Positions 1-1,794 of a DNA stretch of 28,192 nt are shown piece after piece (positions within the stretch are counted from its first letter, which is position 1; every line of letters begins with the position of its first letter). Made by a program: the position numbers and the translations under genes. The stretch spans positions 1-28,192 of the forward strand of contig JAQTMD010000001.1 in assembly GCA_028714595.1 (NCBI GenBank), in the 5' to 3' direction. The DNA comes from Candidatus Omnitrophota bacterium (lineage in GTDB: Bacteria; Omnitrophota; Gorgyraeia; Gygaellales; Profunditerraquicolaceae). The notes under the pieces are model-generated. The model did no database searches. It saw nothing but the letters and a program-made list of their open reading frames with translations, and was not told where the DNA came from.

Positions 1-215
1 CCCTGGGCCTCGCGAATCTTTTGCAGGACTGACAACCCTGAGGCATCCGCCAGCACAAAGTCCAGGATGACCAGGTCGAACGGCTCCCGGAAGACAGCCG
101 CAAGCGCCTGAGCGGCGCTGGGCACTGAAACGGCCTCAAACCCCTCCGCGGCAAGGACCGTGCGCAATGACTCCCTGATCTGGAGTTCGTCGTCGACAAC
201 GAGGATCTTTACCAT
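1..215 (-). CDS. Response-regulator receiver (REC) domain protein; 3' part runs off the window
   Basis: Not in the ORF track; hand-translated from ATG at 215: MVKILVVDDELQIRESLRTVLAAEGFEAVSVPSAAQALAAVFREPFDLVILDFVLADASGLSVLQKIREAQ. It has the acidic pair (VVDDE) and the phospho-acceptor Asp52 (DLVILD). Confidence 0.92.
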   Translation of the reverse strand, partial: MVKILVVDDELQIRESLRTVLAAEGFEAVSVPSAAQALAAVFREPFDLVILDFVLADASGLSVLQKIREAQ

Positions 216-228
216 AGGCGCGGTTTTT

Positions 229-1308
229 TCAGTTCAAAAAATAGATGGAAATCTTGACGGGGTTGCTGCTCAGGACGCCGCTCGATGAGTTCAGACGTCC
301 GAATTCGGTCAGGACGGCTCCCGTAGCCTGCACGCGTTCCCGCAGCGTCCCGACGTCCGTCCTCGAAACAGAGATCACCATGAAACCTTCCTCTTCATGC
401 TCGACGCTGCCTCCCGTCTTTTTGATGACCGTCACGAAGAGTTGTTTTTGGTCCGCAGAAACAAAGCCGACGTGCCAGTGGAGCGCATCCGAATCAACCG
501 CTCCCGTTTTTCCGAGGTACACCAGGAGGCGGTTTGCGGTATTCTGGAAAAGGGGCGTGCCGGCGGTAAAATCCTGGCGCAAAAAACCCTCGCCCGACGC
601 AAGCACCATCCGCTCCACGACCTGCTCCATCGCTTCCTTGGATGAGGCAAAAGACAGAAGCTCCCCGTCAAGGTAATCCGTGCGGCTGCCCAGGGGCGCA
701 AGTATCTCCAGCAGTTTCGACTTCGCCGTCTCATCGGCATATTCGAAGTGCCAGTGCAGCGGATGGAGCACGATGGAGGATTTTTCGCTCTCAGCCGCAG
801 GCACAGCCGCCGGTTCTCCTGCTGCGGGCCCCGCTTCGCCCGGCTGCGCAGCACCCCGACCTTCTTCCTGCTCTGCAATGCCCGGCCCCGGTTCCCGGGC
901 GCCCTGGCCCGCATCCTCCCTTATCCTCTCCATAGTGACAATGGGTGCGTCAATATCCGGCGGCGGCCGGCGGCCGGTCTTAAAAACATGGAACACGACA
1001 TACAGCGCCGCCATGCCCGCGGCCGCTGCCGCCAGTGCAATCAGCGCCCTGCGGGAAATGACAAACCGCTGCTCGGGTCCGCGAGCTTCCGCTTCTTTAA
1101 GTTTGAACAATACGGTATCGGCGAGGTCGGCCGGGACCTTGACATTGCCCAGTTCCCAGAGCTGATTGGACAGCGACCCGATAGAGCCGACATACTCCCT
1201 GCACCGGCTACACCCTTCGAGGTGCGCGACGACCGCCTGATATTCGTCTTCCACAAGCAGGTCTTCAAGGAAACTCTTCAGCGCCTTATCTACCTCTGCG
1301 CAGGTCAT
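229..1308 (-). CDS. Membrane-anchored zinc-binding anti-sigma factor (ZAS/zf-HC2) with duplicated C-terminal domain
   Basis: N-terminal MTCAEV...HLEGCSRC (HxxxCxxC), one hydrophobic helix (ALIALAAAAAGMAALYVVFHVF), a Pro/Ala/Gly/Glu linker, then two LHWH-initiated repeats. Starts 6 nt after the stop of an ECF-sigma-like gene. Confidence 0.88.
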   Translation of the reverse strand: MTCAEVDKALKSFLEDLLVEDEYQAVVAHLEGCSRCREYVGSIGSLSNQLWELGNVKVPADLADTVLFKLKEAEARGPEQRFVISRRALIALAAAAAGMAALYVVFHVFKTGRRPPPDIDAPIVTMERIREDAGQGAREPGPGIAEQEEGRGAAQPGEAGPAAGEPAAVPAAESEKSSIVLHPLHWHFEYADETAKSKLLEILAPLGSRTDYLDGELLSFASSKEAMEQVVERMVLASGEGFLRQDFTAGTPLFQNTANRLLVYLGKTGAVDSDALHWHVGFVSADQKQLFVTVIKKTGGSVEHEEEGFMVISVSRTDVGTLRERVQATGAVLTEFGRLNSSSGVLSSNPVKISIYFLN

Positions 1309-1314
1309 AGCGGG

Positions 1315-1794
1315 TCACCTCTTTTTTCCCAGGAGCAGCGCGATCTGCTCTCTGAGCGCACCACGCGCCTGATTCATCTGCATCCGCGCATCTTTCTCGG
1401 TACTCTGCGTGACAAATGCTATCTGGCTGTAGGGAAGACGCATCTGGTCACGTAAAAGGAGCAAGAGCCGCACCTCAAAATCAAGCTGCGCAATGGCAGC
1501 CTTCATGAGGTCAAGCGGCGCCCTTTTCTCCGGCGGAACGTCTGAAAGCCCGTAGTCTTCCGCGGAAGGGATAGCCCGCATTCCCCGGCTTCGGGAGGCG
1601 ATAGCTGCGGCAAGCCTGGCAGGGAACATCGCGTCCGTCTCGGCAGACGCAGTGGCCCGGATCGCTTCTGCAAAACCCGATGCGACGATATCATAGGCGC
1701 GGTCCTGGTTGCCTCCGATAAGGTAAAGCGCCAGCGCAAAGGCCTTTTGTTGATACCGCGCAATAAGCGATGTCAGCTGCTTTTCGTTATACAT
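1315..1794 (-). CDS. ECF (sigma-70 group 4) sigma-factor-like protein, divergent
   Basis: Region 2-like LIARYQQKAFALALYLIGGNQDRAYDIV and region 4-like AAIAQLDFEVRLLLLLRDQMRLPYSQIA...QARGALR. Start moved to ATG 1794 because the longer ORF runs into tRNA-Gln. Adjacent to a ZAS anti-sigma gene. Confidence 0.8.
   Translation of the reverse strand: MYNEKQLTSLIARYQQKAFALALYLIGGNQDRAYDIVASGFAEAIRATASAETDAMFPARLAAAIASRSRGMRAIPSAEDYGLSDVPPEKRAPLDLMKAAIAQLDFEVRLLLLLRDQMRLPYSQIAFVTQSTEKDARMQMNQARGALREQIALLLGKKR

What the first reader, a model, noticed from the sequence alone, without database searches (positions are those of the whole stretch)
1..1794. Degenerate ECF sigma + ZAS anti-sigma + receiver protein: possible sigma-mimic (split PhyR-like) switch
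Seen: compared with the ECF consensus, region 2 DAEDLVQE reads RAYDIVAS, FxxWLxxIAxN reads FPARLAAAIAS (W and N lost), and region 4.2 SYxEIA...GTVKSRLxRAR reads PYSQIA...KDARMQMNQAR. The helical scaffold is kept but many core- and promoter-contacting residues are changed. The gene is followed by an intact ZAS anti-sigma and a receiver protein with Asp52. Established: in the alphaproteobacterial general stress response, PhyR uses a DNA-binding-deficient sigma-like domain plus a receiver to titrate the anti-sigma NepR. Inference: either an ECF with unusual promoter specificity or a stand-alone decoy sigma in a partner-switching system linked to phosphorelay. The latter would be a new architecture.
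Basis: partly seen in the sequence, partly recalled or inferred. Interest (0 to 1): 0.65.

Follow-up and report, generated by a model that had tools for sequence, protein, structure and literature searches.

The report
Pseudo-sigma, anti-sigma and double receiver cassette
A conserved three-gene set in uncultured Omnitrophota bacteria encodes a sigma-factor look-alike that seems unable to start transcription and instead appears to team up with its membrane anti-sigma partner to dock a phosphorylation-switch protein, a wiring I did not find described.

Summary
Observation confirmed and extended. The 159-aa ECF-like protein belongs to a distinct family (113 clusters at 50% identity; 16 of 401 genomes of its phylum, Omnitrophota) under purifying selection. 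Family-wide it keeps 0.8 of 8 ECF core- and promoter-contact residues (canonical sets 5.7-6.7; this copy 0) but keeps the two basic residues that bind a ZAS anti-sigma in SigW-RsiW. All 24 loci have a membrane ZAS anti-sigma at +1, and 23 have a 254-aa receiver-receiver protein with no output domain beside the pair. A complex prediction docks the second receiver's alpha4-beta5-alpha5 face on a surface built jointly by sigma-like protein and anti-sigma: score 0.66, best control 0.00 (mark reached by 58 of 80 solved and 2 of 110 mismatched pairs; run agreement at least 68%; partner pLDDT at least 82). No shared orphan ECF was found for a PhyR-type decoy to free. Best reading (0.45): a non-transcribing pseudo-sigma/anti-sigma dock that couples a membrane sensor to a phosphorelay. 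Rivals: atypical true sigma (0.28), split-PhyR decoy (0.15), no receiver binding (0.12). Nothing is tested experimentally.

The parts
1315..1794 (-). ECF-fold sigma-like protein (159 aa): sigma2 and sigma4 helices kept, core- and promoter-contact residues degenerate; family signature LLLRDQ
229..1308 (-). ZAS anti-sigma-type single-pass membrane protein (359 aa)
1084..1308 (-). cytoplasmic zinc anti-sigma domain, ligands C3/H29/C33/C36 invariant in 18 of 18 orthologs; closest solved relative RsiW (E 5.7e-6)
991..1047 (-). predicted transmembrane helix (residues 88-106, mean hydropathy 2.3)
232..777 (-). presumed extracytoplasmic tandem of two small alpha/beta (ferredoxin-like) domains, each starting with an HWH motif; no Pfam family; weak fold matches only (best Z 5.6, rmsd 2.9 over 69 residues)
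3..215 (-). first 71 aa of a receiver protein with Asp52, cut by the contig end; 59% identical to the 253-aa REC-REC protein at the same position in a same-genus genome
1835..1908 (-). tRNA-Gln(CTG) ending 40 bp upstream of the sigma-like ATG; context, not conserved in other loci

Best explanation
The sigma-like protein no longer works as a sigma factor. It stays bound to the cytoplasmic zinc domain of its membrane anti-sigma partner, as SigW does to RsiW (inferred from kept contact residues and gene order). The two together form a membrane-anchored docking surface for the alpha4-beta5-alpha5 face of the second receiver of the REC-REC protein (predicted). That face changes with phosphorylation in receivers generally (established knowledge), so docking should depend on phosphorylation state (inferred). 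With no transcription output left, the most coherent flow is that the anti-sigma's outer domain or its proteolysis controls how much REC-REC is tethered or phosphorylated, feeding an envelope signal into the surrounding histidine-kinase network (inferred, untested).
For: Eight ECF hallmark residues (Q, E/D of LxQE; sigmaE W73, N80, T169, S172, R173, R176): family mean 0.77 of 8, canonical sets 6.67 and 5.72, this copy 0; Q and W kept in 0%. They are variable rather than swapped for a new consensus; promoter roles of W73, N80, T169, S172 and R176 from PMC6648896 and PMC1540707. Net charge of the DAED region -1.1 vs -3.2 to -3.7; that acidity binds the beta' clamp (PMC8103513). The recognition-helix basics that are kept, R137 (R/K 93%) and R144 (R 88%), align with SigW K170 and R177, which contact the RsiW acidic motif around D16 (PMC5358783); the matching acids E15/D16 are kept in the ZAS. 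Purifying selection. Synteny in 23 of 24 loci; the 11 best REC-REC matches in 401 genomes all sit by the sigma-like gene. Complex prediction passed: 0.66 vs best control 0.00, including the control with the sigma-like chain replaced; mark reached by 58 of 80 solved and 2 of 110 mismatched pairs; runs agree in at least 68% of contacts; partner pLDDT at least 82. Interface includes invariant Y230, three residues before K233, and sigma R148 (93%). No shared orphan ECF.
Against: No experiment; the organism is uncultured. The prediction used my own alignments, a zinc ligand and the REC-REC of a sister genome, so the calibration holds only roughly, and PhyR-NepR is a solved receiver/sigma-like/anti-sigma assembly that could bias the model. 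Interface residues of the sigma-like protein and the ZAS are no more conserved than the rest of each protein (2.45 vs 2.38 and 1.51 vs 1.44 bits). The conserved receiver tail also occurs in REC-REC paralogs far from any sigma-like gene. R149, Y156 and R171 equivalents, which touch DNA in sigmaE, are kept. Single alanine changes at W73 or N80 only slow sigmaE. Three orthologous ZAS proteins lack the outer domain. The direction of signal flow is not shown by any result.
Confidence: 0.45

Rival explanations
1. It is a real but atypical sigma factor (or an RNAP- or DNA-binding regulator) under double control: the ZAS holds it, and REC-REC binds the complex as an anti-anti-sigma or co-inhibitor, so that a kinase signal gates release.
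For: Complete sigma2+sigma4 fold, cognate ZAS always at +1, and R149, Y156, R171 and R178 equivalents kept. An output-less receiver needs a downstream effector, which a releasable sigma would supply. Degenerate ECFs can be activated by helpers (EcfP by phosphorylation, PMC8999054). A canonical Omnitrophota ECF clade also lacks the Q and alters T, S and R. The same predicted complex fits this reading.
Against: Loss on all three functional surfaces at once with no replacement consensus; that tolerant Omnitrophota clade still keeps W and N. Sigma2-sigma4 spacing is short and nearly fixed (median 82, IQR 81-82, against 85-108 and variable in canonical ECFs), unlike a flexible linker threading through RNAP (PMC6372665). 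No Ser/Thr kinase among the called genes of the loci annotated.
Confidence: 0.28
2. Split PhyR: sigma-like protein plus phosphorylated REC-REC capture the ZAS and thereby free a canonical ECF encoded elsewhere.
For: The predicted ternary receiver/sigma-like/anti-sigma assembly has the composition of PhyR~P-NepR. PhyR's sigma-like domain is likewise degenerate at promoter and core surfaces (PMC8103513). Every cassette genome checked has at least one canonical ECF.
Against: No true ECF in any cassette, whereas ecfG, nepR and phyR are generally at one locus. Of 26 canonical ECFs recovered from cassette genomes nearly all have their own +1 ZAS or membrane protein, they fall in several clades, and no orphan clade is shared. 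The cassette ZAS has a family-specific helix 3 unlike those of canonical ECFs. No fusion of this sigma-like domain to a receiver was found (weak).
Confidence: 0.15
3. The sigma-like/ZAS pair has some other, unknown partner; REC-REC is only a co-transcribed member of the local two-component cluster and the predicted contact is a false pass.
For: The cassette often lies among kinases and other receivers. One locus (G070) has no REC-REC nearby. REC-REC paralogs with the same tail exist without the pair. 2 of 110 mismatched pairs pass the tool's mark.
Against: The REC-REC stays adjacent through three different arrangements (downstream, upstream, divergent) while the other neighbours change. All three controls scored 0.00.
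Confidence: 0.12

Closest known systems
PhyR-NepR-EcfG (ECF15), alphaproteobacterial general stress response
   Same: Sigma-fold domain degenerate at promoter and core surfaces; works with a receiver domain and an anti-sigma; a receiver/sigma-like/anti-sigma assembly; NepR can modulate receiver phosphorylation (PMC4551977).
   Different: Sigma-like part is a separate protein; partner is a tandem REC-REC; anti-sigma is a membrane ZAS, not soluble NepR; no true ECF at the locus; 0 of 96 members hit the Pfam PhyR families.
Bacillus subtilis SigW-RsiW (PDB 5WUQ)
   Same: CHCC zinc anti-sigma domain, single membrane helix, outer domain; closest solved relative of the ZAS domain; K170/R177-to-D16 contact residues kept; model matches the closed SigW (Z 15.3, rmsd 3.6 over 141 residues).
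   Different: SigW is a working sigma with W, N, Q/E and the recognition-helix residues; no receiver partner is described in the paper read.
EcfP-PknT (ECF43), phosphorylation-activated ECFs
   Same: Reduced negative charge around the DAED motif.
   Different: EcfP replaces DAED by STTA next to a Ser/Thr kinase. Here the last acid is kept in 72%, W and N are lost, and the neighbours are a ZAS and Asp receivers.
ECF groups with two-component neighbours (ECF15, ECF32, ECF39, ECF234, ECF246)
   Same: ECF-like gene with a response regulator in its context; ECF246 also has an anti-sigma.
   Different: In ECF246 and ECF234 the regulator is fused to a transcriptional regulator (10.1101/2019.12.11.873521); here it has no output domain. 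That paper does not mention Omnitrophota.
CheY-type output-less receivers
   Same: Signal passed by protein contact through the alpha4-beta5-alpha5 face and the beta5 tyrosine (own knowledge).
   Different: Tandem receiver; predicted target is a sigma-fold/anti-sigma composite.

Membership tests
ECF sigma factor (group 4) | sigma2 and sigma4 helical domains only | tested here: met
   Model pLDDT 93, seven helices; profile aligns end to end with AlgU and RpoE; best fold match 5UXX Z 15.8, rmsd 3.0 over 149 residues
ECF sigma factor (group 4) | Scores above curated sigma2 and sigma4 family cut-offs | tested here: not met
   Both below cut-off; 0 of 96 members hit Sigma70_r2 at E 0.01, 89 hit r4_2
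ECF sigma factor (group 4) | Acidic DAED/LxQE core-binding patch | tested here: not met
   Q 0%, E/D 16%, net charge -1.1 vs -3.2 to -3.7; last D/E of DAED kept in 72%
ECF sigma factor (group 4) | -10 melting and reading residues (sigmaE F64, W73, N80) | tested here: not met
   W 0%, N 3%, F64 position variable
ECF sigma factor (group 4) | -35 reading residues (sigmaE T169, S172, F175, R176, R171, R149) | tested here: not met
   T 3%, S/T 29%, R176 13%, F175 position variable; R171 (R/K 93%) and R149 (100%) kept
ECF sigma factor (group 4) | Linker long enough to thread through RNAP | tested here: inconclusive
   Spacing 82 vs 85-108; modelled coil 17 residues vs 20 in working sigmaL
ECF sigma factor (group 4) | Autoregulated bipartite promoter upstream | tested here: inconclusive
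   Upstream regions of 11 loci inspected by eye only; most genes are inside operons; no motif search run
ECF sigma factor (group 4) | Binds core and starts transcription; assignment by ECF Hub group HMMs | not testable with these tools
   Needs bench work; group HMMs not available
PhyR sigma mimic | Sigma-like domain fused to a receiver | tested here: not met
   Separate genes in all 24 loci; no long homolog (weak evidence)
PhyR sigma mimic | Promoter and core surfaces degenerate | tested here: met
PhyR sigma mimic | Soluble NepR anti-sigma and a true EcfG at the locus | tested here: not met
   Membrane ZAS instead; no second sigma gene in the loci
PhyR sigma mimic | Phosphorylation-dependent capture of the anti-sigma frees a sigma | not testable with these tools
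   Only a static complex was predicted
ZAS anti-sigma (RsiW type) | C..H-x3-C-x2-C zinc motif, membrane helix, ECF-like gene at -1 | tested here: met
   C3/H29/C33/C36 invariant in 18 of 18; zf-HC2 above cut-off; hydrophobic 88-106
Phosphorylatable receiver | DD, phospho-Asp, T/S and K | tested here: met
   REC2: D139/D140, D183, T211, K233-P234 in 16-17 of 17. REC1: D52 in 16 of 17 (E in G297), S80, K102 but no following proline. Only REC1 residues 1-71 are in the window.
ECF43-type kinase-activated ECF | S/T in place of DAED and an adjacent Ser/Thr kinase | tested here: not met
   Motif is K/R-A-Y-D/E; no such kinase among called genes of four annotated loci

The most novel reading that the evidence does not exclude
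An ECF sigma/anti-sigma pair has been wholly repurposed away from transcription: the pseudo-sigma and its membrane ZAS form a composite dock that tethers or tunes an output-less double receiver, so an ECF-type membrane sensor feeds a two-component phosphorelay instead of RNA polymerase.
Probability: 0.4. Interest if true: 0.87.

Novelty: new variant of a known kind. Interest (0 to 1): 0.72.

Why it matters
PhyR is the standard example of a sigma mimic, and it is fused to its receiver. This family shows a stand-alone sigma-fold protein kept under selection after losing its polymerase and promoter contacts, with a concrete, mutable interface predicted to a receiver protein. If the ternary complex is real, ECF/anti-sigma modules and Asp phosphorelays are wired together in a second, independent way, either as a new control layer on a sigma or as a sensor that bypasses transcription. 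All three proteins are small and soluble after trimming, so the question can be settled in E. coli and in vitro although the host is uncultured. It also flags that such proteins are missed or misnamed by sigma2+sigma4 pipelines.

Tried and rejected
Pseudogene or private decay: rejected (intact frames, 113-member family, dN/dS 0.11-0.21). The compact closed AlphaFold model (pTM 0.88, like anti-sigma-bound ECFs and PhyR-SL) as evidence for a decoy: rejected, because predicted models of ordinary ECFs take the same shape (TM 0.79). Short total length as evidence: weak, ordinary ECF clusters of 156-161 aa exist. Rest of the receiver gene elsewhere in this assembly or in Logan contigs: not found. 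Fused forms: none; the 758-aa hit is an unrelated canonical ECF-ZAS fusion and the 253-aa hit a chimera-like extension. Outer domain: no Pfam family and only weak fold matches, which does not show a new fold. Weak TAT-signal hit at residues 84-102 is below cut-off and coincides with the membrane helix. No GC anomaly suggesting recent transfer. Promoter scan gave nothing on the coding strand. Four primary PhyR papers were not held, so PhyR features are cited from reviews. Literature searches found no description of this cassette.

Full report
Observation. The window is the start of contig C1 of a 1.49-Mb, 79% complete assembly. A genome of the same class is the named Omnitrophota record L024 (same locus and contig length as G320), so the host is taken to be Omnitrophota. 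Three minus-strand genes run sigma-like (1794-1315, 159 aa), ZAS (1308-229, 359 aa) and a receiver cut by the contig end after 71 residues, with Asp52. Pfam and NCBIfam see only sub-threshold ECF similarity.

A family, not a decaying gene. A profile search of 1.84 billion representatives gave 64 proteins at E 1e-30 or better. In a quick tree of 134 full-length hits, 113 are separated from 21 canonical ECFs by a branch with SH-aLRT 100. Mean identity within the family is 31%, close to the 34% of the canonical set, so the two are comparable. dN/dS is 0.11-0.21 in the four pairs not saturated. The family was found in 16 of 401 genomes of the phylum, across several families, and is patchy even among close relatives (3 of 31).

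What is lost and what is kept. I mapped positions to E. coli sigmaE and B. subtilis SigW through PDB alignments. Of eight hallmark residues (Q and E/D of LxQE; W73, N80, T169, S172, R173, R176) family members keep 0.77 on average, canonical hits 6.67, canonical Omnitrophota ECFs 5.72, and this protein none. W73 and N80 act in -10 melting (PMC6648896). S172, R176, R171 and F175 read the -35 bases (PMC1540707). The acidic DAED patch binds the beta' clamp (PMC8103513); its net charge falls from about -3.5 to -1.1. The lost positions are variable, with no new consensus, while new near-invariant residues appear elsewhere: Y34, F106, R115-D116-Q117. The two recognition-helix basics that are kept, R137 and R144, align with SigW K170 and R177, which contact the RsiW motif around D16 (PMC5358783), and the ZAS keeps the matching acids E15/D16. 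This pattern is what selection for anti-sigma binding without promoter reading would give (inference); R171 is also a DNA contact, so it is not proof. The sigma2-sigma4 spacing is short and nearly fixed (82, IQR 81-82, against 85-108), which is suggestive only, since sigmaL works with a 20-residue linker. The model is a confident closed seven-helix bundle matching RpoE-NepR, CnrH-CnrY, SigW-RsiW and PhyR-NepR, but ordinary ECF models look the same, so I give it no weight.

Synteny. In 24 distinct loci the ZAS gene is always at +1. A 253-259 aa REC-REC protein without output domain lies directly after the ZAS in 17 (two cut by contig ends, one of them this window), one gene further in 1, directly before the sigma-like gene in 4, divergent in 1, and is missing from the fetched region in 1. 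Three of the 24 were found from the receiver side; of the 21 found from the sigma side, 20 have it. In reverse, the 11 best REC-REC matches among 401 genomes all sit by a sigma-like gene, but weaker paralogs with a similar tail often do not. Other neighbours vary and are mostly histidine kinases and single receivers. The ZAS ligands are invariant; a membrane helix follows, then two small alpha/beta repeats with HWH motifs, absent in three orthologs. REC2 has a full canonical site; REC1 keeps Asp in 16 of 17 but lacks the Lys-Pro proline.

Predicted complex. I folded the window's sigma-like protein and ZAS(1-75) with zinc and the REC-REC of the same-genus genome G297 as the scored partner. The tool's verdict was support for binding: 0.66 against a best control of 0.00, a mark reached by 58 of 80 solved complexes and 2 of 110 mismatched pairs; runs agree in at least 68% of contacts and partner pLDDT is at least 82. 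Replacing the sigma-like chain abolished the score. The interface is REC2 residues 214-250 (alpha4-beta5-alpha5, with invariant Y230) on ZAS helix 3 (42-46, 49) plus the sigma C-terminal helix (148-159) and residues 89-96. Caveats: own alignments, a ligand and a hybrid pair lie outside the calibration. PhyR-NepR is a solved assembly of similar composition, though NepR is not a ZAS and no close solved relative of the REC-REC was found. The REC2 face is more conserved than the REC1 face (0.86 vs 1.40 bits), but the sigma and ZAS sides are not more conserved than average.

Is there a sigma to free? Cassette genomes hold one to six canonical ECFs. Of 26 recovered, nearly all have a +1 ZAS or membrane protein of their own, and no orphan clade is shared. 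This does not exclude cross-binding but removes the expected partner for a PhyR-type decoy.

Mechanism. Shown from sequence: family-wide degeneration, selection, synteny, intact zinc and phosphorylation motifs. Predicted: the ternary contact. Inferred: that the protein does not transcribe, that docking depends on phosphorylation, and the direction of flow. If the sigma-like protein is inert towards RNA polymerase and no other ECF is freed, the complex has an output only through REC-REC, so I favour a membrane dock that tethers or tunes the double receiver (0.45); NepR raising PhyR phosphorylation is a precedent for an anti-sigma acting on a receiver (PMC4551977). An atypical working sigma gated by ZAS and REC-REC remains possible (0.28), as do a split-PhyR decoy (0.15) and a false-pass prediction (0.12).

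Comparison and novelty. It works like PhyR-NepR in composition and like SigW-RsiW in its anti-sigma pair, but fails membership of both PhyR and canonical ECFs on tested features. The ECF classification lists ECF15, 32, 39, 234 and 246 with two-component neighbours, none described with an output-less tandem receiver. Searches of the held literature found no account of this cassette; that library is incomplete. I rate it a new variant of sigma mimicry, which would become a new kind of wiring if the flow from sensor to phosphorelay is confirmed. Interest 0.72.

Noticed in passing
L026:10284-10465 (G297, end of contig C32): Three 38-nt direct repeats at a 72-nt period, CRISPR-array-like, immediately upstream of the cassette in the same-genus genome.
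   Followed up: no
L160:2775-3536 (own genome C79); L224, L225, L229-L232, L234: A wider Omnitrophota family of output-less REC-REC proteins, many with a similar conserved C-terminal helix, often two in tandem and not next to any sigma-like gene. Their target is unknown.
   Followed up: partly
L037, L060, L064, L065, L067, L070, L072, L073: A common Omnitrophota ECF clade lacks the Q of LxQE and reads NVKVLIFRAR-like in region 4.2 while keeping W and N; possibly an unclassified ECF group.
   Followed up: no
L004:6476-7012, L022:3833-4378, L023:7493-7999; L001, L003, L028: Three ZAS orthologs end soon after the membrane helix and lack the HWH domains; several others (L001, L003, L028) carry a long coiled-coil insertion inside the first repeat.
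   Followed up: partly
L026:7796-8557: In the same-genus genome the first receiver has Glu in place of Asp52, the only such case in 17.
   Followed up: no
L004:4681-5997 and orthologs in L002, L022-L024, L027, L031: A conserved ~440-aa multi-pass membrane histidine kinase recurs just upstream of the cassette in many loci and is a candidate partner kinase; no close ortholog found in this assembly.
   Followed up: partly
window:1944-2141 (-): 65-aa ORF with a lipoprotein-like signal (hydrophobic stretch then Cys) between gltX and tRNA-Gln.
   Followed up: no
window:9498-11378 (-): 627-aa ORF between the TIGR00282 phosphoesterase and xseA genes with no NCBIfam match at E 1e-15.
   Followed up: no
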